Positions 30,647 to 64,000 are shown, counted from the first letter of the stretch. The stretch is DNA of 64,000 bases from an uncultured Verrucomicrobiota bacterium (GCA_964609905.1 CAZSUH010000004.1:971-64970), one strand, 5' to 3'. Numbers and translations are program-made. The notes: generated by a model from the letters alone, not told the origin.

Positions 30647-30739
30647 AAAGCGTTCCGCGGATTCCGCCCGTTCCGGCAACGCCTCGGCGGGAACAGGAGT
30701 TCCAATGGAAAAACGGCACCCAAAATCCGGAGTCCAGGC

Positions 30740-32481: not shown

Positions 32482-32485
32482 AACG

Positions 32486-34013: not shown

Positions 34014-34025
34014 TGGAGTGGGAGG

Positions 34026-35638: not shown

Positions 35639-35818
35639 TTCGTGCGTCCAGCATTTAAGGCCGATTCGCCGGGCGCTGTTCCCCCATTTCCAGATGTCAT
35701 CCATGGCGACATCGTTTGCGTGCGGGAGAAGGAGCGGGTGGGCTCAATCTTGTCCCGCAAGGATGGCGGGAGTAACCGGACATGAAGCCGGTGTTTACCG
35801 GCCAGGAGCGTTCGTAAC

Positions 35819-36565: not shown

Positions 36566-36622
36566 GGAAAAAATGCGTCACTCTCGCACGGAGCGCCAGA
36601 AACTAAACGGAATGAGCGTGCC

Positions 36623-40385: not shown

Positions 40386-40399
40386 TTTAATCGAAAAGC

Positions 40400-42930: not shown

Positions 42931-42944
42931 GGTTCACGCATCCC

Positions 42945-44817: not shown

Positions 44818-44929
44818 ATCGACGCGGAATACTTTCCGGTCCGTCCTCTCGCCGGGCCCTCGTCACTGCCCTGCCTGTCGGATTACCTTTAGGCTTTTCT
44901 TTTCCCGCTTTTTAAGGCATCGTCAACAT

Positions 44930-45880: not shown

Positions 45881-46599
45881 TCGTTCCGCTCCTCGCGGGA
45901 CTCATGGCCCTCTGGGTCCGGTTCGCGCCTCCGTCGCATACGGCGGGCGCCTCCCGCCTGCGGATGGACCTGCCCGCCGAACTCGGAGCTTTTTCCGGCC
46001 AGCGCTATCTGTATTGCCAGAACGAACAGTGCTTGAAAGCCATTCCCGTTCCGGAAGGCGCCACGATGAGCCGATGCCCCGTCTGCGCCGGTCCCCTGCA
46101 CCCCATGGCGCTGGGCGAACGCACCAGCCTGCCGGTCGATACTCAAATCGCGCGCCGCATCTATCACGGAGCCGGCCTCCAGTCCTACACGGTCACCATC
46201 GTGTTGGCCGGCGCCGATCCCCGCAGCATCCACCGGCCCCAACAGTGCCTGTCCGGCCAGGGCTACACCATCGATCGGGAGCAAGTCCGCACCCTCAGGC
46301 TCGCGCCCGACCGCACCCTCTCCCTGGCCGTTATCGATACCCGAAGAGGCTCCGATCCCCGCAACCGCTTCGGCTTCGCCTACTGGTTCGTGGGTCCAGA
46401 TCGCGAAACCCATTCCCACTGGGTCCGGCTGTTCCGAACCACCACGGACCGTCTCTTCCGCAACATCGTCTCGCGCTGGGCCTATGTCGCCATCACGTCC
46501 AGCGAACCTCTCGACAGCCCCGAAAGCCTGGACCGGTTGGCCGCCTTCATCCGGCTCCTCCTGCCCGCCATCGAATCCAACCCCGATTTCCACTCATGA
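45835..46599 (+). CDS. EpsI-family exosortase-associated protein with an inserted Cys4 zinc-ribbon
   Basis: N-terminal TM helix. ...IHRPQQCLSGQGYTI... is equivalent to the EpsI core. The insertion is YCQNEQC-x14-CPVC. The gene overlaps the exosortase 3' end by 46 nt. Confidence 0.7.
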   Translation: MGNAPYQAPRWAPGLIVPLLAGLMALWVRFAPPSHTAGASRLRMDLPAELGAFSGQRYLYCQNEQCLKAIPVPEGATMSRCPVCAGPLHPMALGERTSLPVDTQIARRIYHGAGLQSYTVTIVLAGADPRSIHRPQQCLSGQGYTIDREQVRTLRLAPDRTLSLAVIDTRRGSDPRNRFGFAYWFVGPDRETHSHWVRLFRTTTDRLFRNIVSRWAYVAITSSEPLDSPESLDRLAAFIRLLLPAIESNPDFHS

Positions 46600-52003: not shown

Positions 52004-52070
52004 ACGGGCATAGTACGCGGATCGCGCCCCAGCCGCAATGGGAATTGGCGGGCCGGGATGAGCGTTTCGA

Positions 52071-52913
52071 TCAGCGGCCCGAGAGGGTGAAATAGGCGTT
52101 AAAACAGATTTCGCCCCCGGTTTGCTCCAGGAACTGCCGTTCCGGCGACACATAACCGGCCTCCTCGAGCAGCGTGAATACGTCCACCGGTCTTTTCCCA
52201 AAGAAGTTCAACGTATACGGATTGATCTCGATCATCAGTCCGGCGAAGGCGTGAGCGTGGAGCGTCCTCCGCATTCCCCTCAGAACGTGGCACTCGAATC
52301 CCTCCACGTCAATTTTGGCAATCCAGGTTGGGGCGAATGGCAGCCGCAATCCGGCGCGGGCCAGCCAGTCATCGAAAGTCACAACGGGCACATCGACGGT
52401 CTGCCCCTTCAGCTCCGGATGATTGCCCAAGGTGGAATGGCCGGTGTCGTCGCCGCCGGTATGCAACCCCCGGGTGGTCTCGTCATCGCCCAGTGCGCAT
52501 CCGGCCACGGAAAAACGACGCTCCAAACCATTTCTCCTCCGAGCCCTCTCCATGCGCGCCGCATTTTCGGGAAGCGGATCGAACGCATACACATCAACCG
52601 GCTTCTTTTGGGTCAACATCCAGTAGGAGAAGAAACCGTAATTGGCGCCGATGTCGAAAAAAACGGAACCCTCCCGGATCCAGCCTGCCAGAATCCGTGC
52701 GGCGGGATGCTCGAATCGCACCCCCTGCCAATAGGTGACTTTTTGAGTGGCGTCGCGCAGGTTCAGGTCGACACGCAAACAGGGAAAGAGTTCGACTTCC
52801 TGCTCGGCCGGCGCGCTTCGATAAAAGGCGTCAAATGCGCGCCTTCCCAAGGGTGGAAAGCGGTAGCCCATCCACGCGCGCAGGCGATCCGCCAATTGCC
52901 ATCGTGTCAGCAT
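52071..52913 (-). CDS. FkbM-family methyltransferase
   Basis: ...VFFDIGANYGFFSYW...VYAFDPLPEN...AKIDVEGFECHVLRGM. The start was moved to the ATG at 52913. Confidence 0.8.
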   Translation of the reverse strand: MLTRWQLADRLRAWMGYRFPPLGRRAFDAFYRSAPAEQEVELFPCLRVDLNLRDATQKVTYWQGVRFEHPAARILAGWIREGSVFFDIGANYGFFSYWMLTQKKPVDVYAFDPLPENAARMERARRRNGLERRFSVAGCALGDDETTRGLHTGGDDTGHSTLGNHPELKGQTVDVPVVTFDDWLARAGLRLPFAPTWIAKIDVEGFECHVLRGMRRTLHAHAFAGLMIEINPYTLNFFGKRPVDVFTLLEEAGYVSPERQFLEQTGGEICFNAYFTLSGR

Positions 52914-53101
52914 GATCGTCCCCCGTCCGTGAGACTGGTTTTTCGTAAAATAGGCCAACTGATTCGCTTTGTCCACCTCCGTTTTCCGATTGATTTGACA
53001 GATCGCGCCCGACACGGCCCATGGCCTCGAATGCCCTGGCCGCGGAAGGATTGCTTTTCGAAAAAGGGCCTGCTATTCTGGCGGAACAAGAGGAGGCATT
53101 T

Positions 53102-53974
53102 ATGCGCATTCCCCGATTCTGGGTCAAGGCCACCTGCACCGAGGCCTCCCATGACGGCAAGCCGCTCCGCTTCCAGGCCTGGGGCTGGTCCCACGAAAGT
53201 CCGGAAGCCGCCGCCGCCATGGGGCAGGACAGGGCGAGGCAACTCATGGAACGCTATCAAAAGGCCGATTCAAGCCGCCCTCATTCGGAATACGACTACC
53301 TGGACCAGCCCCTGCGCGAAGAGATCGTGGACGAAATCGGACCGGCTGGCGAATCAATCGCCGTCATCACCCGCAACCGTTACGGTTCGCTCATCCTCAA
53401 CGCGTCGTCCGTCCTGTTCGCGGATATCGATTTCCCCCCGCCGCGTTCCCGCGGATTGCTCGATGCCATTCGCCTCTCTTTTTCCGCCGCGCATCGCGCC
53501 GACCGGGTCGAAGAGGCCCGCCAAGCCACCCTGACAACCGTCAAAGGCTGGATCAGCCGCCATCCCGAACGCCCGGTCCGCCTGTACCGCACCGCAGCCG
53601 GACTGCGCCTGCTCTTCACGGATAAAACCTACGACCCCGCATCCCCCCAAACGCTTCAGTTTCTTCAGGAACTGGGAAGCGACCCGCTCTACATCCGCCT
53701 GACACTCAAGCAGGAATCCTTCCGCGCGCGGTTGACGCCCAAACCCTGGCGCTGCGGCGCACCCCGCTATCCCGTCCGATTTCCCTTCCAGAATGAGAGC
53801 GACACCGAAACGGCCCGTCACTGGAAGGAGCAATACGCTCGGCTCTCCGCCTCCTGCCGCGTCTGCGATCTCGTGTCCGTCTCCGGGCGGGACTCCGCCG
53901 ACCCGACCATCCAGACCACGGTCGAGCTCCACGATCGCTACGCCTGCAATCCCAAGGCCGGCAAGCTGGCGTGA
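53102..53974 (+). CDS. Hypothetical protein (290 aa)
   Basis: MRIPRFWVKATCTEASHDGKPLRFQAWGWS...VLFADIDFPPP...LYRTAAGLRLLFTD.... No family was recognised. The start was moved to the ATG at 53102. Confidence 0.65.
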   Translation: MRIPRFWVKATCTEASHDGKPLRFQAWGWSHESPEAAAAMGQDRARQLMERYQKADSSRPHSEYDYLDQPLREEIVDEIGPAGESIAVITRNRYGSLILNASSVLFADIDFPPPRSRGLLDAIRLSFSAAHRADRVEEARQATLTTVKGWISRHPERPVRLYRTAAGLRLLFTDKTYDPASPQTLQFLQELGSDPLYIRLTLKQESFRARLTPKPWRCGAPRYPVRFPFQNESDTETARHWKEQYARLSASCRVCDLVSVSGRDSADPTIQTTVELHDRYACNPKAGKLA

Positions 53975-53984: not shown

Positions 53985-54563
53985 TCACTTCCAGCAGCCG
54001 CTGGCCGTGGTTTCCTGAACGGGTATCGGGGACCGGTTGTCCCCCGGCTCGGGCGCCGTTTTGGCGTTTCTGAAGCCCAGGGCCAGCGTCACCGCCACCA
54101 GAAGCGCGCAGGCGCCGATCAACCCCGTCAGCCGGGCAACGTGTCCTTCCGGTTCGGGCGGATCGGCCTCGACTTCCATTCGGGCAAGGGGCGCATCCGG
54201 CTCCAACAGGCATTTCAGAATACAAGCGCCGACCGCCACGTAGGATCCGTCCCGCAACTCGTTCTCCGCCCCCAGCAACCCCTCGTCCACCCCTTCCGCC
54301 GAGGGCGCAACTGGAACGGATTTCGAAACCAGATCGCCCCCCCGCACCCGGTGCAGCCGGGTCCCGTTCCGGCTGCCCAGGTCCACCACGTAATACCGGC
54401 TGTCCCGCCGGACGATCTCCGCATGCAGGCGCGAGACACCGTCATGCGCGACCGAAACTTCCGCATCGCACCGGTTGCCGATCAGGGCCGGAAATCGCTT
54501 CACCCGGAACACCCGGCTGGCCGCCGAATCCGTCACATCCACCACGACCAGGTTCATGGTCAA
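53985..54563 (-). CDS. FHA-domain protein with a C-terminal TM segment
   Basis: FPALIGNRCDAEVSVAHDGVSRLHAEIVRRDSRYYVVDLGSRNGTRL (FHA core), followed by LTGLIGACALLVAVTLALGF (TM). Confidence 0.85.
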   Translation of the reverse strand: MTMNLVVVDVTDSAASRVFRVKRFPALIGNRCDAEVSVAHDGVSRLHAEIVRRDSRYYVVDLGSRNGTRLHRVRGGDLVSKSVPVAPSAEGVDEGLLGAENELRDGSYVAVGACILKCLLEPDAPLARMEVEADPPEPEGHVARLTGLIGACALLVAVTLALGFRNAKTAPEPGDNRSPIPVQETTASGCWK

Positions 54564-54573
54564 CTCCTCTGTC

Positions 54574-55341
54574 TTAAGGCCGCAATTCCACCAATTGCCG
54601 GCTGATTCGCGCTACGCAGCCCGTCTCCACCCAGAGCCGCAGGGGATCGCCCTCCGGCATGCTCAAGGCCAACCGCATCCAGGCATCCCGCGCCTCGTCC
54701 AGCCGTAACGATTCTTCCAGCCGCCGGGGCTCCTCGAACCGTTTCGCATAACGCCGGCAATCCCGCTCGAACGCTTCCACTTCCCCAGGGTTGCCTCCTC
54801 CGTGGCGGGAATCCCCGAGAAGACGCATGGCATCCTGCAAGTCGCCTCCACAACGCGCCGTCCATGCCTTTTCCATTCCGTTGTTTTCGGAATCGGCACC
54901 TGTTCCCCCGGTTAATCCCCGGCTTACCGCGGTCCCCGCCATCAGCAACGACAGGAACAGGCCCACGCCGGCCCATCGCCGCATCGCGGGCGAAAGCTTG
55001 ATCCGAAACCGCCGGGAGACGGAAGCCGTGAGACGGAAGACAAGCACCGTGTGTCCCAACGTAACCGAGTCGCCATCGCTCAACACCGCCGTATCCACGC
55101 GTTTTCCCTGCACGATCACACCCGCTTTGCTGGGTTGTTCCGGCCAATCCTCGATCACCAGTCGAGTGCCGGTCACATGGCCCCGGGCGTGATGCCGCGA
55201 GACGCTCATGTCCCGCACCAGGGCACAGTCCACGGCATCCTCCCGAACCGCCCGCCCGATTGAAAATCCGCCGGACGGAACCTCGAACACCCGGCCCTGC
55301 TCGGGCCCTTTCACCACTTCAATCCGGATTGTCGGATTCAT
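54574..55341 (-). CDS. FHA-domain protein with a central TM segment and a C-terminal helical domain
   Basis: FSIGRAV...DMSVSRHHARGHV...VIEDW..PSKAGVIVQGKRV (FHA), followed by WAGVGLFLSLLMAGTAV (TM). Confidence 0.8.
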   Translation of the reverse strand: MNPTIRIEVVKGPEQGRVFEVPSGGFSIGRAVREDAVDCALVRDMSVSRHHARGHVTGTRLVIEDWPEQPSKAGVIVQGKRVDTAVLSDGDSVTLGHTVLVFRLTASVSRRFRIKLSPAMRRWAGVGLFLSLLMAGTAVSRGLTGGTGADSENNGMEKAWTARCGGDLQDAMRLLGDSRHGGGNPGEVEAFERDCRRYAKRFEEPRRLEESLRLDEARDAWMRLALSMPEGDPLRLWVETGCVARISRQLVELRP

Positions 55342-55359
55342 CCGATTCCCTTTCTGTTT

Positions 55360-56235
55360 TTACAGGCCGCCAAAACCGTTCAGATACATTTTGGCCTGGC
55401 TGACCAGGAGCGGAATGAACACCAGGCAGGCAAACGCCGGCACCATGAGAAGCAACAGGGGCAGGAGAATTTTTTGTTGCGCCTGGGCCCCCGAGCGTTC
55501 CGCCTTTTCCATCCGTTCCAGCCGCATCTTCTCGGCTTGTGCGGCCAATACATTCGCGACGCCGGCGCCCAGGTCAAGGCCCTGGCAGAGGATCGCCACA
55601 AAACTGGTCATCTCCGCCATCCGGATGCGGCGGGCCATCTCTTGCAACGACCCCGACAGAGAACGGCCCAGCGCCATGTCACGACGCGTCAGTTTCAACT
55701 CCTCGCGCAACGGACCGGCCCCGATTTTCTCCAGGACCCGATCGATGGACGCGCCGAACTCGAGCCCCGCCAGCGTGCATAACGCCAGCAGATCCACCAC
55801 GTAGGGCATGCTCCTGCGGATGGAGGCATGCCGCTCCTGAATGGCGCCCATCACCCACAAATCGGGAAACACCAGCCCCAGCGCCACCAACCCGGCCTGC
55901 ACCGGCAAACGGAAGGGCATGCCGGCCAACAACAGGGCGACGGCCAGCACAAAACGCAAGGACATGTAGTCTTCTGCCCGGATGACATGCCCATATCCGG
56001 CCGCGGTCAAGTTCCCCTGTATCCAACGGCTCCACGCCGGAATCCACGACAAGACGCGGCGGGACAAACCGGAAAAGATCGGAAAGCCCGGCCGTAGAGC
56101 GGCAAATAGTCCCGGCATTTCCGCGATCTTCGTTCCGTCAGATCCGGTTGCCATGGCGCTCATGACCCAGAAGGCCGTCGCGCCCGTGGCCGTTGTGACG
56201 CACAGCACGGATAGTTCTAAAAAAAGATTCTGCAT
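55360..56235 (-). CDS. tadC: Tad/T2SS-F family inner-membrane platform protein (TadC-like)
   Basis: ...MPYVVDLLALCTLAGLEFGASIDRVLEKIG.GPLREEL...LGRSLSGSLQEMARRI... is a T2SSF-domain pattern. Adjacent to the tadB-like gene. Confidence 0.8.
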   Translation of the reverse strand: MQNLFLELSVLCVTTATGATAFWVMSAMATGSDGTKIAEMPGLFAALRPGFPIFSGLSRRVLSWIPAWSRWIQGNLTAAGYGHVIRAEDYMSLRFVLAVALLLAGMPFRLPVQAGLVALGLVFPDLWVMGAIQERHASIRRSMPYVVDLLALCTLAGLEFGASIDRVLEKIGAGPLREELKLTRRDMALGRSLSGSLQEMARRIRMAEMTSFVAILCQGLDLGAGVANVLAAQAEKMRLERMEKAERSGAQAQQKILLPLLLLMVPAFACLVFIPLLVSQAKMYLNGFGGL

Positions 56236-56248
56236 GGTTGACCTCCCG

Positions 56249-57085
56249 TTATACTTTCACCGACGCCATGTTCCGGATGACCACCAACGCCAATCCGTTA
56301 AAAACAGATCCGATCGCCAACAGGCACTTTCCCCACCCCGTCGCAAACACGCCCCGCACGCCTTCCGGATCCAGACAGAGCCAGCCGACCAACAGTAGAT
56401 ACGGAAGGGCGGCCAGTGTATATCCCTGGAACCGGGTCTCCGAGGTCATGGTTCTCACGCGATCCTCGACGCGTTCCCGTTCGCGGATCATCTGGACCAG
56501 TCCGTCCAGAATACGGGTCAAATCCCCGCCTGTCTGCCGGCCCACCTGAACGGCCGTCACAAAAATCCGCACGCTTTCTCCTTTCATGCGCGCGGCCAGC
56601 CGTTCAAGTCCCTCGTCCAGGGATACACCCAGATCGCGGTCCCTGACCACCCGACCGAATTCAGGGCCGGCTGGTGCGGGCATCTCCCGGGCCACAATAT
56701 CCACGGCCTGGCTCAAGTTAAAACCGGCTCTCATGGAGTTGGCGATCATCAACAGCACATCCATGAATTGCCGTTGAAAGAGACGGCACCGCCAGCCCTG
56801 GTAAGCCGACAACACCCAACCGGGCGCGAACAAACCCACGCCCATCGCCAGACCGGCCAACAACAGACTGCGAGTCAGCGCATACAAGGCAAATCCGGCG
56901 AACCCGGAAACCGCCGCAATCCCCGCCAGAATGACCCGCTGCCCCAAAGCCACCCGCTCCCGTCCGAACCCCTCGGCGGCGGAGACGGCCGTCTCCAAAA
57001 TCCGCTTCCAAACGAGGGGCGCCAACAACCAGGCAGCCGAGAAACTCAATCCCCAAACTCCAAGATCCCAAATGGTCGCTCGCAT
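56249..57085 (-). CDS. tadB: Tad/T2SS-F family inner-membrane platform protein (TadB-like)
   Basis: ...FMDVLLMIANSMRAGFNLSQAVDIVAREMP.PAGPEF...LGVSLDEGLERLAARM... Confidence 0.8.
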   Translation of the reverse strand: MRATIWDLGVWGLSFSAAWLLAPLVWKRILETAVSAAEGFGRERVALGQRVILAGIAAVSGFAGFALYALTRSLLLAGLAMGVGLFAPGWVLSAYQGWRCRLFQRQFMDVLLMIANSMRAGFNLSQAVDIVAREMPAPAGPEFGRVVRDRDLGVSLDEGLERLAARMKGESVRIFVTAVQVGRQTGGDLTRILDGLVQMIRERERVEDRVRTMTSETRFQGYTLAALPYLLLVGWLCLDPEGVRGVFATGWGKCLLAIGSVFNGLALVVIRNMASVKV

Positions 57086-57107
57086 GGGTCTCCCCCTTTC
57101 TTTTCTC

Positions 57108-58529
57108 CTACAGACTCGGCCACTGAAAAGGAGCCGGCCAGTCGAACGGAAACCAGCCGTAAAAATCGATCCCTTCCCACTCGTTCAAACCCGTCAACGC
57201 GTTGATGCCTTCTGCCAGGCAGACGGGAAATTCAGTCGAACGGCGTCCGATGCTGGAGTCAGGCAGGTCCATCTGATGTGCCACGGCCTGCTGCAAACAG
57301 GTGTCCACCGCCGCGTTCGCCCGTTCACTGGCCGGCGCCTTGATCAATCGGCCCAGAAAGGCCAGTCCCTTGCCCACTCCGTCTTGGATGACGCGGCGCG
57401 CTGAGCGCAGGGGTTTCATCACCTCGTTCTCAAAGATTTTTGCCGCATCCTGACCTAATTTTCGGATCACGCCATATCCGGCCTCATGCACCTTCCGGAG
57501 CGCCTGGATTCCGAGCTGGGCGAGGTAGGCTTTGGGATTTTCCTGGAACGCCTTCAACCAGGCCAGCAACTGACTCAGATCCGTCAAGTTCAGACGCTTC
57601 ATCAGTTCTTCCGCGTCCATCTCGAATTCCACGGCAAATCCACAGCCAAGCCCCAGCGAGGCGCCAATGCTGGCCATGAAACTGACTTTCCCGTTCCATC
57701 CAAGGGTAGCCACCGCTTTGCCCTCAGCCAGCGCTCCCGCATACCCCGAGGCAATCAGATTAACGTTTGTTTTCACCCCAAACACATGCGCTTCGAAGTT
57801 CAGCTTGACCTCCCCCTTGGCGTAAACGCCCGCGGAACCCTGTGCGCCGAAGGTAATGCCCTTCTCGTCCACATAGGCGCCCATTTTCCCTTTGGCCACG
57901 GCCGCCACCTCAAGTTTTGCCGTGCCTTTGAAACTTGCGCCCACCTTTTTATCGCCGATCGCCATCTTGACTGTGTTGGCTTTCAACGACGCCTCCACCC
58001 CGATTTTTCCCTGGGCTTCGACCCCGTTGTCCCCCAACCGCACCTTGCCGTCCGCGCCGGCGTCGGCCTTGACCGCCAGCGTGCCAAGATCACCGCGTAC
58101 CGTTTTACGGTAAGAGGGACCCGTCTCGCCGGTCCAAACGGTCTCCCCGTTTTTAAGCCGGGTCCCGCCTATTTCGCGGGTCGTGGAATTGCCGATTTTG
58201 GCCTCCACGCCGGTTTTCGTGTCCACGAACCGGCCGGCTTCGCCCTCCCAAGTCGTCTCTCCGGTTTCGCCATGCCAACCGATCTCACGGGTCTTGACTT
58301 GCGTGCCCGATTTGCATGTCGCCCACTGGCCGCCGTCGGAAACGGTCCGGGACTGAATCTGCCGGGTTTCGGTAGTGACCTTAACCGCGCGTTCCGGTTG
58401 ACGAACCGTGGTTTTATCCGTCGTCGTGACGCGCGTTTTCGTTTCCGCCCCGGCGTTCAAACCGATTCCCAGAAGAACCGCCAAGAGGCAGCGTAAACCT
58501 GTTTTTCCCGCAACTAGCGTGACGTTCAT
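57108..58529 (-). CDS. Unknown secreted protein (473 aa) embedded in the Tad-like operon
   Basis: Signal peptide MNVTLVAGKTGLRCLLAVLLGIGLNAGA. Then a Thr/Gly/Lys/Glu-rich beta-like repeat region (GETGETTWEGEAG, GVEAQGKIGVEASLKANTVK, GASFKGTAKLEVAAVAKGKMGAY, AKGEVKLNFEAHVFGVKTNVNL). Then a helical C-terminal part ending in the aromatic tail FYGWFPFDWPAPFQWPSL. Confidence 0.75.
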   Translation of the reverse strand: MNVTLVAGKTGLRCLLAVLLGIGLNAGAETKTRVTTTDKTTVRQPERAVKVTTETRQIQSRTVSDGGQWATCKSGTQVKTREIGWHGETGETTWEGEAGRFVDTKTGVEAKIGNSTTREIGGTRLKNGETVWTGETGPSYRKTVRGDLGTLAVKADAGADGKVRLGDNGVEAQGKIGVEASLKANTVKMAIGDKKVGASFKGTAKLEVAAVAKGKMGAYVDEKGITFGAQGSAGVYAKGEVKLNFEAHVFGVKTNVNLIASGYAGALAEGKAVATLGWNGKVSFMASIGASLGLGCGFAVEFEMDAEELMKRLNLTDLSQLLAWLKAFQENPKAYLAQLGIQALRKVHEAGYGVIRKLGQDAAKIFENEVMKPLRSARRVIQDGVGKGLAFLGRLIKAPASERANAAVDTCLQQAVAHQMDLPDSSIGRRSTEFPVCLAEGINALTGLNEWEGIDFYGWFPFDWPAPFQWPSL

Positions 58530-58545
58530 GGTTCGTTCCTTTCCG

Positions 58546-59895
58546 TTACGGTTTCTTGGCATGGGCGGTCCAACCCGGATCTTTGCCCTGTCCGATCAGG
58601 ATCAAATCATCGAGCATCTTCATCGCATGGGGCGCCCATGGGCTCGATCCGTCCGCCACGACCGCCAGCAGGCGAAGCCCCCGGTCGAAATCGATTTGGC
58701 TCAACACCAGAAAGCGTCCAAGGTTGTACTGCGCATCCGGGAAATAGGGATCGGCCGCAACCGCCTTCGAGAAGCAATCCAGGGCGCCGTCGGCATCCGA
58801 TCGCTGAGTGGCGATCACGCCCAGATCGTTCCACGCGCGGGCATAGGCCGGCTTCAACTCGACACATTTGCGAAAGGCGGCTTCCGCTCGGACCACATCC
58901 CCGGTCTTGTCGTAGCACAGACCGAGCACATACCAGTTTTCCGGCACGCCGGGAAAACGGCGGGTTCCTTCTTCCGCTTGGGAGATCGCCTCGCCCATGC
59001 GCCCCTGTTCCGCCAGAACGGCGGCCAGGTCGTTGCGCACGGCCGGATCGGCGGGATACGTTCGGATCAAATCCCGCAGAATGGCTTCGGATTCCCGCCA
59101 CTCACGCCGGCGGCCGTGCAGGCGTGCTAATTGAAGGCGGGCTTCGGGAAAATCGGGCCGGGCTTTCAGCATCTCGCGCAACACCCGGTCCGCCTGCTCC
59201 ACCATTCCCTCGCGCACATAATGCGTGGCCAGCATCAGTTTGCTTTCGGGCGTGTCCCCGGAAACCTCAACCAGTGCCTGCCACACGCTTTCCTGCTGCT
59301 CCCTCATGCCGGCCTGATCGTAAAGGCGGGCCAGCAAAAAAAGGGTTTCCGCGTCGCCGGGATTCAGGCGAAGGCTGACGATCAGGTATTCCGCGGCCAG
59401 TTTGAGATTGCCCGACTCGATCAACAGCCGCGCCAAATTGTTCAAGGGCATGGCCAACAGGGGATTTTCGCGGACCGATCGCTCAAACGCCTTCTGCGCG
59501 TCCGGAATCCGCCCCTCCTTCAACAACACCGCGCCCAGGTTGTTCCAGGCCAGCGCATTTTCCGAATCCCATTCCACGGCCTGGCGATAATAGAACTCGG
59601 ATCGACCCAGATTGTTGCGCTGCAGGTGAAGGTTGCCGGCGTTATTGGCCGCGCCGCTGTAAATACGGCGCACATCGGGATCCGCCCCGGACTTGGCCCC
59701 CGCCAGCACGTTCTGAAAGGCCGTCAGGGCCTCCTCCATGCGGCCCGCTTCCTGATGCGCCACCCCCCGGTTGTAGGTTTCCGCCACCGCTCTGTTTGTG
59801 TCCGGCACCGTCGCCTCCCGCTCCACGCGTTCATCCTGCGCCCGGCACACGCCCAGCGCCGCCATCATCAACCCGATCCCGATCACCCGTTTCAT
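58546..59895 (-). CDS. TPR-repeat protein (TadD-like, possible lipoprotein)
   Basis: MKRVIGIGLMMAALGVCRAQ (signal/lipobox-like), followed by multiple TPR units (A..Y.LG......G....A...F..A). The start was moved to the ATG at 59895. Confidence 0.75.
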   Translation of the reverse strand: MKRVIGIGLMMAALGVCRAQDERVEREATVPDTNRAVAETYNRGVAHQEAGRMEEALTAFQNVLAGAKSGADPDVRRIYSGAANNAGNLHLQRNNLGRSEFYYRQAVEWDSENALAWNNLGAVLLKEGRIPDAQKAFERSVRENPLLAMPLNNLARLLIESGNLKLAAEYLIVSLRLNPGDAETLFLLARLYDQAGMREQQESVWQALVEVSGDTPESKLMLATHYVREGMVEQADRVLREMLKARPDFPEARLQLARLHGRRREWRESEAILRDLIRTYPADPAVRNDLAAVLAEQGRMGEAISQAEEGTRRFPGVPENWYVLGLCYDKTGDVVRAEAAFRKCVELKPAYARAWNDLGVIATQRSDADGALDCFSKAVAADPYFPDAQYNLGRFLVLSQIDFDRGLRLLAVVADGSSPWAPHAMKMLDDLILIGQGKDPGWTAHAKKP

Positions 59896-59975
59896 GCGTT
59901 TCTCCTTGCTTCTTCGATTCCCCGGCATCCCGGCCGCACCCGCGGCCGCAGGAGTCCGGATCGTTCCATCCGTGG

Positions 59976-61415
59976 TCAGGCCGCACCCTGGCGTGTCTGC
60001 CGCTCGTCGCCCGACGCCGAAACCGGCTCCGCCGGCCCTTCCGCAAACAACGCCCTATCGACCTCCAAGCCTCCCGCGCGCAGGCGGTCAATACAGGCGG
60101 GCACATACCCGGTGGCCCTGAACGCCCCTTCCACCCGCCCGTCTTTCGCGACGCCCGTCTGCTCGAACACGAAAATGTCCCGCGTCGTGATTTCGCCCGA
60201 TTCGATCCCCAGCACCTCGGAAATACGATCGATCTTCCGCGACCCATCGCTTAGGCGCGCGATCTGGACCACCAGTTGAACTGCGGAGGCGATGTTTCGT
60301 CGAATCACGGCAATCGGCATCTCCACGGCCATGAGCACCAACCCCTCGAGACGCGCCAACATGTCCCGGGGGGTATTGGCGTGCAGCGTCGTCATGGACC
60401 CCTCGTGCCCCGTGTTCATGGCCTGGAGCATGTCGAACGCCTCGGCGCCCCGGCACTCGCCCACAATAATCCGGTCGGGTCGCATGCGGAGCGCGTTGCG
60501 CACCAGATCGCGAATGGTCACCTCGCCCCGCCCTTCCACGTTGGCCCGGCGCGCTTCGAGCCGCACCAGGTTCAAATGGGTCAGCCGGAGTTCGGCCGAA
60601 TCCTCGATCGTGATCACCCGTTCATCCCCCGACACCGCCTGCGACAGCGCATTGAGCAAGGTGGTTTTCCCCGTTCCCGTGCCGCCCGATACGATCAGAT
60701 TGCGGCGGCCCCGCACGCACAACTCCAGGAACCGCATCATCGCCGGCGTGCAGGAACCGCGCGCGATCAGATCCGCCGCGCCCAGCCCCCGCTTGGCGAA
60801 CTTGCGAATGGTGATCGTGGCCCCGTCCACGGCCAGGGGCGGCAGAATGATGTGTACCCGGGAACCGTCTCGCTCCAGTCTCGCATCCACGTAGGGCATG
60901 CTTTCGTCCACCCGGCGGCCGATCGGCGCCACAATCCGGTCGATGATACTGGCGAGCTGCTTGGAGGTGGCGAAACGGCGGCTGGTCAGTTCCATCCGAC
61001 CATGCCGGGCCACAAAAATGCGCTCCGGTCCGTTGACCATGATCTCCTCGACGCTCTCGTCCTTGAGCAGGTCCTCCAACGGCCCCAGTTCCAACGCCTC
61101 GTCCAGCACCTCCTTGACCAGCGTCTCCCGCTCATGCGCGGAAATCGGCTCGCCCAGCCGGTCCATCTCGAATCGGATGATGTCCTCCGTGCGGGTTCGC
61201 AACGCGATCATGCGCATCGCTCCTTCCAGAACATCCAGATTCATCCGGCGCAGTTCCTCGTTCTCCTGCACCTGTGCCAGAAGCCGGGACTTAATCCCCT
61301 GGAGCCGGCCGCGCCGCTCTTTTTCGCGCTCCTCGATCACGGCCAAAACCGTTTTCATGTCGATGCATTTCGTCCCCCCCGAATCAACCGGGGCGTGTTC
61401 TCGTCGCTCGTTCAT
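59976..61415 (-). CDS. cpaF: CpaF/TadA-type secretion ATPase
   Basis: ...LIVSGGTGTGKTTLLNAL (Walker A)...RPDRIIVGECRGAEAFDMLQAMNTGHEGSMTTLHAN... Confidence 0.92.
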   Translation of the reverse strand: MNERREHAPVDSGGTKCIDMKTVLAVIEEREKERRGRLQGIKSRLLAQVQENEELRRMNLDVLEGAMRMIALRTRTEDIIRFEMDRLGEPISAHERETLVKEVLDEALELGPLEDLLKDESVEEIMVNGPERIFVARHGRMELTSRRFATSKQLASIIDRIVAPIGRRVDESMPYVDARLERDGSRVHIILPPLAVDGATITIRKFAKRGLGAADLIARGSCTPAMMRFLELCVRGRRNLIVSGGTGTGKTTLLNALSQAVSGDERVITIEDSAELRLTHLNLVRLEARRANVEGRGEVTIRDLVRNALRMRPDRIIVGECRGAEAFDMLQAMNTGHEGSMTTLHANTPRDMLARLEGLVLMAVEMPIAVIRRNIASAVQLVVQIARLSDGSRKIDRISEVLGIESGEITTRDIFVFEQTGVAKDGRVEGAFRATGYVPACIDRLRAGGLEVDRALFAEGPAEPVSASGDERQTRQGAA

Positions 61416-61417
61416 GA

Positions 61418-62911
61418 TTACTTCTCCTTATTCCGGCCGCCTTGCCCTTTTTCCGACAACTCCGCCCTGCTCCTCACGCCGTCCCGCAACGCCTCCTCCT
61501 CCGGCCCCCCCGGCACGATGCGCCGGGGCGTGATCAGGATGACCAGTTCGCTTTGTTTTTTTCGATAACGGTCGGACTTGAACAACTCGCCCAGCACGGG
61601 AATGTCGCCCAGGCCAGGAATCTTGGAAACGTCCTCGGTGGCCGTATGCCCAATGAGCGCGCCCAGGCTGAGCGTCTGGCCCTGTTTGACGTTGACCGAG
61701 GTGCGGACATAGCGCTTCAGAATCGACGGATATGACCCAATCACAGGCCCAAGACTGCTGAACTCGATGGCGACTTTGGTCTCCAGATTCCCCGCCTTGT
61801 CCATCCGGGGTTCCAGGTTCATTCCAATCCCGTATTCCACCTCCTTCACCTCCACGTCCCGATCGCCCGGTCCGGTGGCCACGATATGGAAGGAGCCGCC
61901 CGCGAAAAACCGGCTGTTCCCGCCGTCTTCGCAAACCAGGTTCTGGGTGTAGAGCACACGGGCCTCGCCAGACTGAACGTGCGGCAGAAGCAACTCAAAG
62001 AGTTTGGTCGTGCCCAGCGATACCGAGGAAACAGGATCAGCTCCGCGGGAGGCGGCTTTCCAGCCGGCCTGCAAACTGAGCGTCTGAACGCCCCCCCAAT
62101 CCACGCCCATCTCGCGCATCGTATCGAGGGTGATTTCCACCAGCTGGCACTCCAGCAGAAGCAGCGGTTTTTCAAGCACCACGTCCTGGGGCATGTCCGC
62201 GGCCTTCCAGGGCTTCACCGTCAGAAAACTTCGCACCTCGGGATAGATGGATCGGGCGGCCGCTTCGGTAAAAGCCTTCTCCGCTTCGCCAAACACCATC
62301 CCCTGCAAAAACAACTCCCGCCCGCAAAAGGAAACGTCGATGTTGCCGTTGGCGATCCGTTCCCGTACGGCGGCGACAACCGAAGCGCCGAAGGCGGAAT
62401 CCAGGCCGGTCAGGTCCACCACGGACTCGCCGTACACGGCCCGTATCCGGGCGACCGCGTCCAGTTCATGCCGGTTGGCAATCCGCCCCATGATCCGAAC
62501 CTTGTCCGAACCGGGGACGGGCGCCGCTGTCAGCGACTCCAGCGCCTTCCCCTCCGGGTCGACCAGCAACGATTGGACCGCGGCATCGAGAGGCCCCGAT
62601 CCCTCGCTCCGCCCCACAAACACTTCCAACCGATCCCGCTCCGTTTCCGCCTGGTCAAACACAAACACGGTGGCCCGCCCTTCCTGAAGCGGCGTCATCA
62701 CCAGCGTGTCGCCGGCAATTTCCACGCCCACCACCCGATCCCCCCCCGCGGCCAACTCAGCGCGCGAAACGGCATAGTCCGCCGAGAACGCGCCGGGTTT
62801 CCCGGATTTCACGTCCAGGGCAACCCGCACCACCGCTCCGGAGGTTTCCACGGCCATCCACGCCGCCGCCACAAGCCCCAGTTTCCAGTTTGTTTTGTTA
62901 TGCCGATACAT
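61418..62911 (-). CDS. cpaC: Tad/type II-III secretin (CpaC/RcpA-like)
   Basis: C-terminal secretin core ...VNVKQGQTLSLGALI...VSKIPGLGDIPVLGELFKS....SELVILITPRIV. The start was moved to the ATG at 62911 (MYRHNKTNWKLGLVAAAW). Confidence 0.88.
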   Translation of the reverse strand: MYRHNKTNWKLGLVAAAWMAVETSGAVVRVALDVKSGKPGAFSADYAVSRAELAAGGDRVVGVEIAGDTLVMTPLQEGRATVFVFDQAETERDRLEVFVGRSEGSGPLDAAVQSLLVDPEGKALESLTAAPVPGSDKVRIMGRIANRHELDAVARIRAVYGESVVDLTGLDSAFGASVVAAVRERIANGNIDVSFCGRELFLQGMVFGEAEKAFTEAAARSIYPEVRSFLTVKPWKAADMPQDVVLEKPLLLLECQLVEITLDTMREMGVDWGGVQTLSLQAGWKAASRGADPVSSVSLGTTKLFELLLPHVQSGEARVLYTQNLVCEDGGNSRFFAGGSFHIVATGPGDRDVEVKEVEYGIGMNLEPRMDKAGNLETKVAIEFSSLGPVIGSYPSILKRYVRTSVNVKQGQTLSLGALIGHTATEDVSKIPGLGDIPVLGELFKSDRYRKKQSELVILITPRRIVPGGPEEEALRDGVRSRAELSEKGQGGRNKEK

Positions 62912-62936
62912 ATCCGTCTCCTGATAAGGGTTCTGG

Positions 62937-63788
62937 TTAAAGGGTCCCGAAATCTTCCAACGCCTGGCGTGTCGCCGTGCGAATCTTGACCGGCACACGG
63001 GCGCCGAATGCTTCATCGCCCTTCAACGAGGGCAACCGTTCGGGAGGCGGTTGAAGCGGTTCGACCAGGTCGTTCCGGCGGTTGCGCAACACGCAGCGGA
63101 GATAGGCCATTGGGGAGGCCAGACTCAACCGCCAGGCCTCGGCCGATGTGACCTCCACCGTGACATACACGTTCATCGGCACGGAGGAAACGGGTCGGGC
63201 AAGGCCGCCGGCCGCCTCCGCCACAGAGTCCGCGCCTACCGCCCGTTCCCCCATCCGTTGATCCACGGCCAGCACCTTGACCGCTTGCACGAGCACGCTC
63301 GCATGACTGCGGGTCGTTTCGGCTGAACTGGCCGACGACTCGAACACGCCGATGATATCCACCCGGTCATTCGGCTGAAGCAGGCCGGCCAACCCCCCTT
63401 CGCCGTCGAATTTGATCGTCATCGCGCGGGTCGCCGTTCCGGCGCGCACGCGAAGCGACAACAGGCCGGCGCCGTCTTGCGCCAGCTTGGTGGCCAGAAT
63501 CTGCTCGCCCTTGCGCAACGGGATCTGAATCATAATCCCCTCCGCGTTCCAATCGAGATTGGTCAACGCGCCCGGTTGCACGAAGGCCGATGGTGTTTCG
63601 GCCGTCTCCACATCGCGTGCTTCCAGAACATGCCCCGCCAACATGTCCCGGGCCGCCACCCAGACCGGGGTGCGGCAACCGTAAACAGCCGTGATTTCGG
63701 CTGTTTTGCGCCCCACATGAATCCGATAAAACAGCCAGGCCAGCAGACTCATCCCCAACGCCACCCACACGGTCATCTTCCTGTTCAT
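62937..63788 (-). CDS. cpaB: CpaB/RcpC-like Flp pilus assembly protein (SAF domain)
   Basis: N-terminal TM helix, then VWVAARDMLAGHVLEARDVE...IPLRKGEQIL (SAF-like), then ...RVDIIGVFES...VQAVKVLAVDQ. Confidence 0.8.
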   Translation of the reverse strand: MNRKMTVWVALGMSLLAWLFYRIHVGRKTAEITAVYGCRTPVWVAARDMLAGHVLEARDVETAETPSAFVQPGALTNLDWNAEGIMIQIPLRKGEQILATKLAQDGAGLLSLRVRAGTATRAMTIKFDGEGGLAGLLQPNDRVDIIGVFESSASSAETTRSHASVLVQAVKVLAVDQRMGERAVGADSVAEAAGGLARPVSSVPMNVYVTVEVTSAEAWRLSLASPMAYLRCVLRNRRNDLVEPLQPPPERLPSLKGDEAFGARVPVKIRTATRQALEDFGTL

Positions 63789-63809
63789 CCCATTTCTCCT
63801 GTTGGTCGT

Positions 63810-64000
63810 TTAATCGTCCGTTTCGCCATGTCCGCTGCCCGTCGCGATCCAGTAGCATCGTCGCAACGTGACCGAAGCCCGTTTTCCGCCCAACACCGCG
63901 TGAATCTCCGGCCGCATCGAAACGCGAACCTGGGTTTCAATCGGAATCAGGCGAAAAGAGGGGTCGGCATTTTCCGCCATCGCCGTGGCGATCACCGGAC
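63810..64000 (-). CDS. Hypothetical protein, C-terminal fragment (ORF open to the right edge). Possibly a TadE/TadG-like accessory protein, by position only.
   Basis: ...VIATAMAENADPSFRLIPIETQVRVSMRPEIHAVLGGKRASVTLRRCYWIATGSGHGETDD*. It lies 21 nt upstream of cpaB on the same strand. Confidence 0.4.
   Translation of the reverse strand, partial: PVIATAMAENADPSFRLIPIETQVRVSMRPEIHAVLGGKRASVTLRRCYWIATGSGHGETDD

What the first reader, a model, noticed from the sequence alone, without database searches (positions are those of the whole stretch)
53985..64000. Non-canonical Tad/Cpa-like secretion operon: no TadZ/CpaE, an embedded unknown exoprotein, and two terminal FHA-TM proteins
All ten minus-strand genes are packed with gaps of 10-80 nt. 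The order is (partial ORF)-cpaB-cpaC(secretin)-cpaF(ATPase)-TPR-473-aa unknown secreted protein-tadB-tadC-FHA-FHA.

Canonical Tad/Cpa loci place a ParA/MinD-like TadZ/CpaE between the secretin and the ATPase. Here cpaC and cpaF are 2 nt apart, and no such gene is present in the 10 kb visible. No Flp pilin, prepilin peptidase or pseudopilin is visible either, although pilins under 60 aa would be missed by the ORF track and could lie beyond 64000.

The two FHA/TM proteins occupy the operon end, where a localisation or regulatory factor would be expected. That suggests phospho-threonine-dependent control or an alternative docking module. Tad-derived machines repurposed for functions other than pili are known, so this architecture could represent a distinct secretion or contact apparatus.
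Basis: partly seen in the sequence, partly recalled or inferred. Interest (0 to 1): 0.75.

Follow-up and report, generated by a model that had tools for sequence, protein, structure and literature searches.

The report
TadZ-less Tad pilus operon with FHA membrane proteins
This is most of a Tad-type (type IVc) pilus operon from a Kiritimatiellia bacterium that lacks the usual TadZ positioning ATPase and instead ends with two FHA-domain membrane proteins. The same layout recurs across related PVC bacteria, where sister loci also carry Rhs toxin genes and a Ser/Thr kinase.

Summary
On the minus strand it reads: FHA2, FHA1, TadC, TadB, a 473-aa unknown, a TPR protein, CpaF, secretin, CpaB and a cut ORF.

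The cut ORF is a TadE/F-like minor pilin. In relatives the operon starts with a Flp-like pilin, TadE and TadG, so this is a pilus machine.

The 12-gene core is syntenic in six Kiritimatiellia lineages with unrelated flanks. None has TadZ or a prepilin peptidase in the locus.

The 473-aa protein, the TPR protein and FHA1 are always present. FHA2 is missing from the other Kiritimatiellia loci but has an orthologue in sister locus L020.

The sister loci L019, L020 and L022 add a polymorphic Rhs protein between CpaF and TadB. They also have an adjacent giant Ser/Thr kinase and an FHA-sigma54 activator. All eight loci that include the pilin start share a sigma54 promoter and an enhancer palindrome.

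By ATPase similarity the system is no closer to Myxococcus KilF than to Caulobacter CpaF.

Verdict: a new variant of a known kind. It is a PVC-lineage Tad machine resembling the Kil system in architecture. The idea that the FHA proteins replace TadZ is inferred, not shown.

The parts
53985..54557 (-). FHA2: 190-aa protein with an N-terminal FHA domain, one predicted TM helix and a short tail. It is the last gene of the operon.
   Evidence: Pfam FHA E=2e-10. It is identical on Logan contigs L003 and L004. It is absent from the other Kiritimatiellia loci. The 409-aa FHA-TM protein at the same position in L020 is homologous (E=3.4e-15).
54574..55341 (-). FHA1: 255-aa bitopic protein. It has a cytoplasmic FHA/YscD-like domain (residues 1-104), a TM helix (about 118-142) and a periplasmic 5-helix domain (154-253) with three conserved cysteines.
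   Evidence: Pfam PF16697 scores 40.3 bits (cut-off 33.2) and FHA scores E=3.5e-9. The AF2 model has pLDDT 78. Foldseek matches only FHA domains. It is conserved after tadC in every related locus that reaches that far, including L020 (E=1.5e-26).
55360..56235 (-). TadC-like inner-membrane platform protein (291 aa)
   Evidence: Pfam T2SSF E=3.3e-13. Orthologues are present in all related loci that reach that far.
56249..57085 (-). TadB-like inner-membrane platform protein (278 aa)
   Evidence: Pfam T2SSF E=1.2e-15. Orthologues are present in all related loci that reach that far.
57108..58529 (-). 473-aa secreted protein of a rare uncharacterised family. It has a signal peptide, about 14 long amphipathic beta strands (31-305), a helical C-terminal half and an invariant C-terminal motif (FDWPxP[FY]xWP).
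   Evidence: No Pfam, NCBIfam or PDB sequence match. There are 16 clusters at 46-100% identity. An exhaustive search found only 60 representatives at E<=1e-3. The 584-aa protein in the same slot of Lentisphaerae locus L022 is homologous (hhalign 99.9%, E=7e-35). The AF2 model is poor (pLDDT 50).
58546..59895 (-). Periplasmic TPR protein (449 aa), a candidate TadD/PilW-like secretin assembly factor
   Evidence: Multiple TPR families match. The best NCBIfam match is PilW (TIGR02521), below its cut-off. It is 44% identical over its full length to the TPR protein of L022.
59976..61415 (-). CpaF/TadA motor ATPase (479 aa) with no N-terminal FHA domain
   Evidence: T2SSE E=7e-61. Caulobacter CpaF structures match at E=2e-108 and are 51% identical over the 365-column core alignment. 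The clade groups with ATPases from the Rhs-carrying loci at 85% NJ bootstrap.
61418..62911 (-). CpaC/RcpA-type secretin (497 aa from the likely start)
   Evidence: Pfam Secretin E=1.5e-29. The gene call on L001 is 497 aa.
62937..63788 (-). CpaB/RcpC (283 aa)
   Evidence: TIGR03177 scores 133.7 bits against a cut-off of 71. Pfam RcpC and SAF also match.
63810..64000 (-). C-terminal part of a TadE/F-like minor pilin. The gene is cut by the window edge.
   Evidence: The complete 97-122-aa ORF on L001 has the N-terminal 'VTVEMAVAALVILVPVLLAL' pilin-like helix. It matches the 119-aa minor pilin of L006 at E=6e-38.

Best explanation
The region is the distal ten genes of an operon of about 13 genes encoding a Tad/Flp-type (type IVc) pilus machine in a Kiritimatiellia (PVC) bacterium.

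Shown:
- The core machine is complete: Flp-like pilin and three minor pilins (upstream), CpaB, secretin, CpaF, TadB and TadC.
- It belongs to a PVC lineage of Tad systems that has no TadZ and no prepilin peptidase in the locus.
- Every locus that reaches past tadC places an SctD/YscD-like FHA-TM protein directly after the platform genes. A second FHA-TM gene follows in the window and in L020.
- The lineage carries a conserved TPR protein plus a beta-rich secreted protein between ATPase and platform genes.
- In relatives the operon has a sigma54 promoter and a conserved enhancer palindrome.
- In sister loci a giant Ser/Thr kinase and an FHA-sigma54 activator lie next door, and a polymorphic Rhs protein sits in the ATPase-platform slot.

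Inferred:
- The two bitopic FHA proteins form or nucleate an inner-membrane scaffold around TadB/TadC. This scaffold docks or gates CpaF, taking over the recruiting role TadZ plays elsewhere. It may couple assembly to Ser/Thr phosphorylation.
- The TPR protein assists secretin or outer-membrane assembly, possibly by binding the invariant Trp/Pro C-terminal tail of the 473-aa protein.
- The 473-aa protein is an envelope component of the machine rather than free cargo.
- Prepilin processing uses a peptidase encoded elsewhere.
- The pilus mediates surface or cell contact.
For: - Domain assignments.
- Minor pilins and pilin: the minor pilin and TadG on the same strain's contig L001; pilin, TadE, TadG and TadF in relatives, with a conserved KRG|LSTVET leader.
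- Synteny: the 12-gene core is conserved in six lineages with different flanks and no TadZ or A24 peptidase.
- Rest of the window: Pfam scans of the window's other ORFs found no TadZ, peptidase, kinase or sigma54 activator.
- FHA1: PF16697 above its cut-off, and an FHA-TM-helical model.
- Orthologues in L020: FHA1 and FHA2 both have orthologues. L022 has an FHA protein after TadC. Pontiella S94 has TadB-TadC-FHA447 plus an FHA-fused CpaF and no TadZ.
- TPR and the 473-aa family are present in the Lentisphaerae locus.
- Regulation: a sigma54 -24/-12 element lies at -79 to -105, and TGTCCG-N5-CGGACA lies at -163 to -227, in 8 of 8 loci against a background of 0.04 per 400 nt.
- ATPase tree: window clade plus Rhs-locus clade, 85% bootstrap.
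- Precedent: the Kil system has an FHA-rich, TadZ-free architecture with a PrgH-like FHA protein beside the platform genes (PMC8460266).
Against: - No experiment or interaction prediction links the FHA proteins to CpaF, TadB or TadC.
- TadZ could be encoded elsewhere in the genome. I could not scan whole genomes.
- FHA1 has Ala in place of the canonical peptide-binding Asn (invariant SKAG). FHA2 has a displaced Arg that is not conserved in the L020 orthologue. Phospho-dependence is therefore uncertain.
- FHA2 is dispensable in most Kiritimatiellia lineages.
- FHA1's periplasmic domain is a small helical bundle, not SctD ring-building motifs.
- The role of the 473-aa protein is open. Its model is poor, and one distant family member carries a CHAP hydrolase domain, which fits an effector-like reading.
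- The sigma54 promoter and regulators were seen only in relatives. The window ends before its own promoter.
Confidence: 0.6

Rival explanations
1. It is an ordinary Tad adhesion pilus. TadZ and the prepilin peptidase are simply encoded elsewhere. The FHA proteins are peripheral regulators and the 473-aa and TPR proteins are lineage-specific envelope accessories. Nothing is mechanistically different from Caulobacter or Aggregatibacter Tad.
For: All core Tad components are present. CpaF is 51% identical to Caulobacter CpaF in the core. The published Tad model allows the peptidase to be encoded apart (PMC6668835). FHA2 is lost in most relatives.
Against: TadZ is normally contiguous with TadA (PMC6668835). 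It is missing from all loci in at least three PVC sub-lineages, while an FHA-TM gene is invariably retained after tadC. The closest ATPase relatives outside the clade are mostly FHA-fused.
Confidence: 0.25
2. It is a Kil-like contact-dependent effector-delivery machine. The pilus brings the cell into contact with a target, and proteins encoded in the ATPase-platform slot are delivered or displayed. In sister loci that slot holds Rhs; here it holds the 473-aa beta-rich protein. Ser/Thr kinase and FHA signalling would trigger assembly.
For: Polymorphic Rhs proteins are embedded in the same slot in L019, L020 and L022. Their cores are 54% identical and their C-termini are unrelated. One member of the 473-aa family carries a C-terminal CHAP peptidoglycan hydrolase domain. 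Subfamilies have conserved extreme C-terminal tags. A giant Ser/Thr kinase and an FHA-sigma54 activator lie next to sister loci. The Kil system is a precedent (PMC8460266; PMC12075869).
Against: The window clade has no Rhs gene in the operon. The 473-aa protein is conserved along its whole length and is not polymorphic. No gene lies between the Rhs gene and the next operon gene where an immunity gene would be expected. The ATPase is no closer to M. xanthus KilF (51.6%) than to Caulobacter CpaF (48.4%) over the same 190 residues. Known cultured Kiritimatiellota are saccharolytic anaerobes, not known predators (my own knowledge).
Confidence: 0.15
3. It is a T2SS-like secretion device. The pilins form a short pseudopilus piston that pushes the 473-aa exoprotein (or Rhs in sister loci) through the secretin, and no extended pilus is made.
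For: Secreted proteins are encoded inside the operon. There is one ATPase, a secretin and minor pilins.
Against: The platform is the split TadB/TadC type and the ATPase is CpaF-type, not GspE/GspF. The pilin is a short Flp-like protein. No GspC/L/M-like genes are present.
Confidence: 0.07

Closest known systems
Canonical Tad/Flp (type IVc) pilus of Caulobacter crescentus (Cpa) and Aggregatibacter actinomycetemcomitans (Tad)
   Same: It shares the CpaF/TadA ATPase (51% identity to CcCpaF in the core), split TadB/TadC platform, CpaB/RcpC, CpaC/RcpA secretin, short Flp-like pilin, and TadE/F/G-type minor pilins. It also has a TPR protein that could act like TadD.
   Different: There is no TadZ/CpaE between secretin and ATPase and no TadV/CpaA in the locus. 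The TPR protein and an unknown 473-aa protein are inserted between ATPase and platform genes. Two FHA-TM genes sit at the 3' end. Relatives have a sigma54 promoter. The pilin has G|LSTVET rather than the EY motif.
Kil system of Myxococcus xanthus (Tad-like contact-dependent killing apparatus; PMC8460266, PMC12075869)
   Same: Both are Tad-derived with no TadZ described and an excess of FHA-domain proteins. In Kil, a PrgH/YscD-like FHA protein (MXAN_4649) and a second FHA protein (MXAN_4648) lie directly beside the platform genes KilH and KilG. That is the same local arrangement as TadB-TadC-FHA1-FHA2 here. Both have TadE/F/G-like minor pilins.
   Different: KilF carries a fused N-terminal FHA domain; the window CpaF does not. 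Kil genes are split into two clusters, whereas this is one operon. The ATPase shows no special affinity to KilF. The host is Kiritimatiellia, not a predatory deltaproteobacterium. The 473-aa protein has no listed Kil counterpart.
Class III (FHA-fused) CpaF ATPases (PMC12019362) and the Pontiella S94 Tad-like locus (L018)
   Same: After the ATPases of the Rhs-carrying sister loci and a set of ~800-aa double-domain proteins, these are the next most similar ATPases (54-58% identity). The Pontiella locus also lacks TadZ and has TadB-TadC followed by an FHA/YscD-like protein.
   Different: Here the FHA domains are on separate membrane proteins, not fused to the ATPase. The Pontiella locus has no secretin, TPR or 473-family gene in view.
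T3SS inner-ring protein SctD (YscD/PrgH)
   Same: FHA1 has the same topology: an N-terminal cytoplasmic FHA-like domain matching PF16697 above its cut-off, then a single TM helix and a periplasmic C-terminal domain.
   Different: The periplasmic part is a 100-aa helical bundle, not three ring-building motifs. No other T3SS genes are present.
Bdellovibrio bacteriovorus Tad with TadZ-TadA fusion (bioRxiv 10.64898/2026.07.08.737194)
   Same: It is another Tad lineage in which the TadZ function has been rearranged. A Bdellovibrionota TadZ-fused ATPase (P0144), of unnamed species, is 53-58% identical to the window's.
   Different: That system keeps a TadZ module fused to TadA. This one shows no ParA/MinD module at all.

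Membership tests
Tad/Flp type IVc pilus system (TXSScan/MacSyFinder definition) | CpaF/TadA-type ATPase | tested here: met
   T2SSE E=7e-61; TadA-family TIGR03819 at 318 bits; CcCpaF structures match at E=2e-108.
Tad/Flp type IVc pilus system (TXSScan/MacSyFinder definition) | Two separate single-domain platform proteins, TadB and TadC | tested here: met
   Two adjacent T2SSF proteins of 278 and 291 aa.
Tad/Flp type IVc pilus system (TXSScan/MacSyFinder definition) | RcpA/CpaC secretin and RcpC/CpaB | tested here: met
   Secretin E=1.5e-29; CpaB TIGR03177 at 133.7 bits against a cut-off of 71.
Tad/Flp type IVc pilus system (TXSScan/MacSyFinder definition) | Short Flp-type pilin with a class III leader (G/XXXXE), plus TadE/F/G minor pilins | tested here: met
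   A pilin of about 80 aa with KRG|LSTVET heads the operon in the relatives whose locus reaches the operon start. TadE (PF07811) and TadG (PF13400) are present in relatives. The TadF-like gene is partly inside the window, and TadG is on the same strain's contig L001. The window's own pilin lies beyond the edge and was not seen.
Tad/Flp type IVc pilus system (TXSScan/MacSyFinder definition) | TadZ/CpaE ParA/MinD-like ATPase, normally next to TadA. It is listed as a mandatory Tad gene (PMC6333679) and described as uniquely found in Tad systems (bioRxiv 10.64898/2026.07.08.737194). | tested here: not met
   No ParA/MinD-type (CbiA, AAA_31 or ParA) domain among the ORFs scanned in the window, nor among called genes of L006, L010-L012 and L018-L022. 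L013 and L014 were compared only with the window's own proteins. Secretin and ATPase genes abut or overlap. Presence elsewhere in the genome could not be tested.
Tad/Flp type IVc pilus system (TXSScan/MacSyFinder definition) | TadV/CpaA prepilin peptidase (may be encoded apart) | tested here: not met
   No Peptidase_A24 in the window or in any related locus (same calls). The published model allows it as a loner. Genome-wide presence is not testable here.
Kil system (Myxococcus-type Tad-like killing apparatus) | ATPase KilF with a fused N-terminal FHA domain | tested here: not met
   The window CpaF has only T2SSE and no FHA.
Kil system (Myxococcus-type Tad-like killing apparatus) | FHA-domain proteins, including a PrgH/YscD-like one, encoded beside the platform genes | tested here: met
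   FHA1 (PF16697 plus FHA) and FHA2 directly follow tadC. Compare MXAN_4649 and MXAN_4648 next to KilH and KilG.
Kil system (Myxococcus-type Tad-like killing apparatus) | Core proteins cluster phylogenetically with KilF/G/H/B of predatory deltaproteobacteria | tested here: not met
   Over the same 190 residues, KilF is 51.6% identical, Caulobacter CpaF 48.4%, the PVC FHA-CpaF 58% and L020 64%. Only part of KilF was available, taken from the paper's supermatrix.
Kil system (Myxococcus-type Tad-like killing apparatus) | Contact-dependent killing function | not testable with these tools
   This needs experiments. The only indirect hint is the Rhs genes in sister loci.
T3SS SctD (YscD/PrgH) | Cytoplasmic FHA-like domain, single TM helix and periplasmic ring-building motifs | tested here: not met
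   The first two features are met. The periplasmic domain is an all-helical bundle of about 100 aa with no alpha-beta-beta-alpha-beta motifs. Foldseek matches only the FHA part.
Canonical phosphothreonine-binding FHA domain | Conserved Arg (GR), Ser and His (SxxH), and Asn (NG) that contact the pThr peptide | tested here: inconclusive
   FHA1 has G29-R30 and S48-x-x-H51, but invariant S71-K72-A73-G74 replaces S-T-N-G. FHA2 has SRLH and SRNGT but 'GNR', and its L020 orthologue has no Arg there. The residue roles come from established FHA literature, not from a test here.

The most novel reading that the evidence does not exclude
The window belongs to an undescribed PVC-wide family of Tad-derived contact machines. 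In this reading, SctD-like FHA membrane proteins have replaced TadZ as the assembly hub. Expression and assembly would be driven by a giant Ser/Thr kinase acting through an FHA-sigma54 activator. The slot between ATPase and platform genes would encode what the pilus delivers or displays: polymorphic Rhs toxins in Lentisphaerota and relatives, and the beta-rich 473-aa family (a possible membrane-inserting translocator or effector) in Kiritimatiellia. That would be a second, independent lineage of Tad-based antagonism beyond the Myxococcus Kil system.
Probability: 0.2. Interest if true: 0.8.

Novelty: new variant of a known kind. Interest (0 to 1): 0.55.

Why it matters
TadZ is treated as the hallmark organiser of Tad pili. 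Here a whole lineage of complete Tad operons lacks it and always keeps an FHA-TM protein after the platform genes. That gives a concrete candidate for how such machines are positioned or triggered.

It may also bear on an open question in the Kil system, where the role of the many FHA proteins is still unknown (PMC12428579).

The sister loci link a Tad machine to a Ser/Thr kinase, an FHA-sigma54 activator and embedded polymorphic Rhs proteins. A search of the held literature returned no paper describing that combination. If the link is functional, Tad pili would join T6SS, T7SS and CDI as Rhs-associated delivery routes, in an environmentally abundant but little-studied phylum group.

Tried and rejected
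- Extending the window's own contig failed. Exact-protein look-ups returned only short Logan contigs, so the window strain's pilin, promoter and anything further upstream were not seen.
- The genome-contig scan with a CpaF alignment picked clade-specific N-terminal motifs and returned only 5 close relatives. The metagenome scan with the FHA1 alignment returned 2 fragments. A broad census was therefore not possible.
- The AF2 model of the 473-aa protein was poor (pLDDT 50). Its Foldseek hits to outer-membrane barrels (FapF, OmpC, NalP) and MACPF pores have TM-scores of about 0.1 and are not evidence. The PDB sequence profile search found nothing.
- Foldseek on the FHA1 model matched only FHA domains. 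The periplasmic domain stays unassigned.
- I considered filing the locus as a Kil system and rejected it. The ATPase is unfused, it shows no special similarity to KilF, and a Polyangia FHA-ATPase next to a weak FHA1 hit is only 35% identical.
- I tested whether L020's 318-aa and 356-aa slot proteins are homologues of the 473-aa protein. Only a 10-residue C-terminal motif (F.WP.P..W) is shared.
- The Rhs C-terminal domains have no Pfam match.
- No Rfam family or tRNA is present in the window.

Full report
**1. Observation**

ORF listing and translation confirm ten tightly packed minus-strand genes between 53985 and 64000. Pfam and NCBIfam assign the following:
- Two FHA proteins: 190 aa at 53985-54557 and 255 aa at 54574-55341. 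The second also matches the T3SS YscD cytoplasmic domain PF16697 above its cut-off.
- Two single-domain T2SSF platform proteins: 55360-56235 and 56249-57085.
- A 473-aa protein with a signal peptide and no family match: 57108-58529.
- A TPR protein: 58546-59895.
- A CpaF/TadA ATPase: 59976-61415.
- A secretin: 61418-62911.
- CpaB: 62937-63788.

Intergenic gaps are 2-80 nt. No sigma70-like promoter lies inside the operon, and terminator-like sites are at or below chance. The downstream boundary is a convergent gene ending at 53974.

The rest of the window is housekeeping, LPS/EPS and exosortase genes. Pfam scans of my calls of ORFs of at least 100 codons across the window (four got no hit) found no TadZ-type ATPase, A24 peptidase, Ser/Thr kinase, PP2C or sigma54 activator.

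**2. What lies upstream**

The partial ORF at the window edge is a minor pilin. Logan contig L001, which carries an identical cpaB gene, extends about 850 nt further. It shows the complete TadE/F-like protein, with the N-terminal helix 'VTVEMAVAALVILVPVLLAL', preceded by most of a TadG-like protein.

In relatives the operon begins with a pilin of about 80 aa bearing a class III leader (KRG|LSTVETIALTVVVVGAVVGA). TadE (PF07811), TadG-like (PF13400) and the TadE/F-like gene follow it. This is therefore a pilus-building machine.

**3. Conservation**

The 473-aa protein forms a small family of 16 clusters at 46-100% identity. FHA1 forms a parallel family. Source names place them in Kiritimatiellia or PVC-group MAGs.

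Six distinct lineages share the same 12-gene order: the window, L006/L016, L010/L015, L011/L017, L012/L014 and L013. The order is pilin, TadE, TadG, TadF, CpaB, secretin, CpaF, TPR, the 47x-aa unknown, TadB, TadC and FHA1. (L014 is cut inside the 47x-aa gene.) Flanking genes differ in every case, so the operon is a self-contained module.

None of these loci has TadZ or a prepilin peptidase. In L006 the secretin and ATPase genes overlap by 4 nt. FHA2 occurs only in the window strain among these lineages.

**4. Sister systems**

The ATPases most similar to the window's outside its clade fall into three groups:
- Unfused CpaFs of about 450-525 aa, at 57-63% identity.
- A large set of FHA-fused CpaFs, including cultured Kiritimatiellota (Pontiella S94 and Pontiellaceae).
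- TadZ-fused ATPases, one of them from Bdellovibrionota.

The contexts of the unfused group are revealing. L020 reads:
- a giant Ser/Thr kinase and an FHA-sigma54 activator, then
- pilin, three minor pilins, CpaB, secretin and CpaF,
- proteins of 356 aa and 318 aa, then Rhs (1303 aa),
- TadB, TadC, FHA(255) and FHA(409).

L022, a Lentisphaerae MAG, has the same frame. Its slot holds Rhs(1340), TPR(450) and a 584-aa protein. L019 is cut inside its Rhs gene.

The homology tests gave these results:
- L020's two FHA proteins are homologues of FHA1 (E=1.5e-26, including the periplasmic domain) and FHA2 (E=3.4e-15).
- L022's TPR protein is 44% identical over its full length to the window's.
- L022's 584-aa protein matches the 473-aa family (hhalign 99.9%, E=7e-35).
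- The Rhs cores are 54% identical up to the DPxGL motif and unrelated after it. This is the signature of polymorphic toxins. No gene lies between the Rhs gene and the next operon gene, where an immunity gene would be expected.

A neighbour-joining tree of the ATPase core groups the window clade with these Rhs-carrying loci at 85% bootstrap. The two terminal FHA-TM genes, the TPR protein and the 473-aa family are therefore ancestral parts of a wider PVC system. The window clade has lost, or never had, the in-operon Rhs gene and the adjacent regulators.

Pontiella S94 (L018) shows a third variant: CpaB, FHA-fused CpaF, TadB, TadC, FHA(447) and a PEGA protein, again without TadZ.

**5. Regulation**

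All eight loci that include the pilin start carry two elements upstream of the pilin start codon:
- A sigma54-type -24/-12 element (TGGCAC-N5-TGC) at 79-105 nt upstream.
- One or two copies of the palindrome TGTCCG-N5-CGGACA at -163 to -227, spaced about 22 nt apart. The background is 0.04 per 400 nt.

Neither element occurs in the window in a meaningful position. This fits a promoter lying beyond coordinate 64000.

Because the same enhancer motif is present where an FHA-sigma54 activator and kinase are adjacent, I infer that the window clade uses an orthologous activator encoded elsewhere. I did not see that activator.

**6. The FHA proteins**

The AF2 model of FHA1 (pLDDT 78) has three parts:
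- An FHA domain (1-104).
- A TM helix (118-142), preceded by basic residues.
- A well-predicted five-helix domain (154-253) with three conserved cysteines, consistent with a periplasmic location.

Foldseek and PDB profile searches match only FHA domains. The topology is that of T3SS SctD, but the periplasmic part is not made of ring-building motifs.

FHA1 keeps the GR arginine and the SxxH serine and histidine, but has an invariant Ala where the canonical Asn sits. FHA2 keeps SxxH and NGT but has a displaced arginine that is not conserved in L020. Phospho-threonine dependence is therefore plausible but not established.

**7. The 473-aa protein**

No family or structure match was found. The AF2 model is of low confidence. 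It predicts about 14 long amphipathic strands followed by helices, and its Foldseek hits are not usable.

An exhaustive profile search of 1.84 billion representatives finds only 60 proteins at E<=1e-3. They share a core equivalent to residues about 130-340. Many have signal peptides and subfamily-specific motifs at the extreme C-terminus: WPxPxxW, or YxRxxx[YF]xxWS[KE]. One carries a C-terminal CHAP domain.

In the window clade the protein is conserved end to end and always follows the TPR gene. I favour an envelope component that may be handled by the TPR protein. An effector or translocator role is not excluded.

**8. Comparison with known systems**

The published Tad model treats TadZ as a characteristic Tad component contiguous with TadA, and allows the peptidase to be encoded apart (PMC6668835; PMC6333679).

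- It is Tad-derived, with no TadZ described and many FHA proteins.
- A PrgH-like FHA protein and a second FHA protein lie beside the platform genes.
- Its ATPase is FHA-fused (PMC8460266).
- The role of its FHA proteins is still unknown (PMC12428579).

FHA-fused CpaFs are recognised as 'class III' (PMC12019362).

The window ATPase is unfused. Over the same 190 residues it is 51.6% identical to KilF, 48.4% to Caulobacter CpaF and 64% to L020. It is therefore not a Kil orthologue. It is a separate, PVC-specific Tad lineage with a convergent or anciently shared FHA theme.

Searches of the held papers returned no paper that mentions Kiritimatiellota together with 'Tad' and 'pilus', and none of the listed hits for Rhs with Tad, CpaF and FHA describes Rhs genes inside a Tad operon.

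**9. Verdict**

The best explanation is a complete Tad-type pilus machine of a TadZ-less PVC lineage. In it, bitopic FHA proteins are the likely inner-membrane organiser or regulator, with probable sigma54 and Ser/Thr-kinase control.

Both the scaffold role and any effector-delivery role are inferences. Novelty: a new variant of a known kind. Interest is moderate to fairly high, mainly because of the conserved FHA-for-TadZ pattern and the Rhs and kinase association in sister loci.

Noticed in passing
L006:2600-2795, L011, L012, L013, L015, L019, L020, L022 (upstream of the pilin gene; outside the window): A sigma54-type -24/-12 element (TGGCAC-N5-TGC) lies 79-105 nt upstream of the pilin start. 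One or two TGTCCG-N5-CGGACA palindromes, about 22 nt apart, lie at -163 to -227. Both occur in all eight loci (background 0.04 per 400 nt).
   Followed up: yes
L020:13650-17561, L022:11878-15900, L019:11694-14174: Polymorphic Rhs/YD-repeat proteins are embedded between CpaF and TadB in sister Tad-like operons. Their cores are 54% identical up to the DPxGL motif and their C-termini are unrelated with no Pfam match. No gene that could encode immunity lies between the Rhs gene and the next operon gene.
   Followed up: partly
L019:1-5314, L020:1-4651, L022:1-4560: A giant protein of about 1650 aa with two Ser/Thr kinase domains is followed by an FHA-sigma54 activator-HTH protein. Both lie immediately upstream of the pilin gene in the sister loci and are absent next to the Kiritimatiellia loci.
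   Followed up: partly
proteins P0154-P0212 (distant members of the 473-aa family): Subfamilies carry different conserved motifs at the extreme C-terminus: WPxPxxW, YxRxxx[YF]xxWS[KE], and GWFG[WF]. One member (P0160, 807 aa) has a C-terminal CHAP peptidoglycan hydrolase domain. L020's unrelated 318-aa slot protein also ends in FKWPKPIDW.
   Followed up: partly
proteins P0045-P0076 (hits to the window CpaF): Proteins of about 780-835 aa score very highly against CpaF, apparently because they contain more than one T2SSE-type ATPase region. One is named as Chloroflexota. They look like tandem or double CpaF ATPases.
   Followed up: no
L018:5460-16281 (Pontiella 'Verrucomicrobia bacterium S94', CP036201.1): A Tad-like locus with an FHA-fused CpaF, then TadB, TadC, an FHA(447 aa) protein and a PEGA-domain protein. 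No secretin or TadZ is in view.
   Followed up: partly
L019:5532-5780 and L022:5105-5344: The pilins of two sister loci read KRG-[ED]VNL[AV]S instead of KRG-LSTVE. They lack the Glu at +5 that the other loci have.
   Followed up: no
window 28500-46000: A large polysaccharide and LPS-type biosynthesis region sits just downstream of the Tad operon. It includes GT1, GT2, GT4 and GT9 glycosyltransferases, FkbM methyltransferases, UDP-galactopyranose mutase and an exosortase (EpsH, 44735-45880).
   Followed up: partly
window 14022-18902 (-) and 12740-14170 (-): A 1626-aa protein has weak DUF5123, disaggregatase-related and purple-acid-phosphatase-N matches. It lies next to a right-handed beta-helix protein. 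Both are probably secreted polysaccharide-active proteins.
   Followed up: no
window 50288-52201 (-), 53021-53974 (+), 10162-12606 (-): Three sizeable ORFs (637, 317 and 814 aa) have coding-like GC3 but no Pfam match. The 317-aa gene converges on the end of the Tad operon with only 10 nt between the stop codons. It is also present on L003.
   Followed up: no
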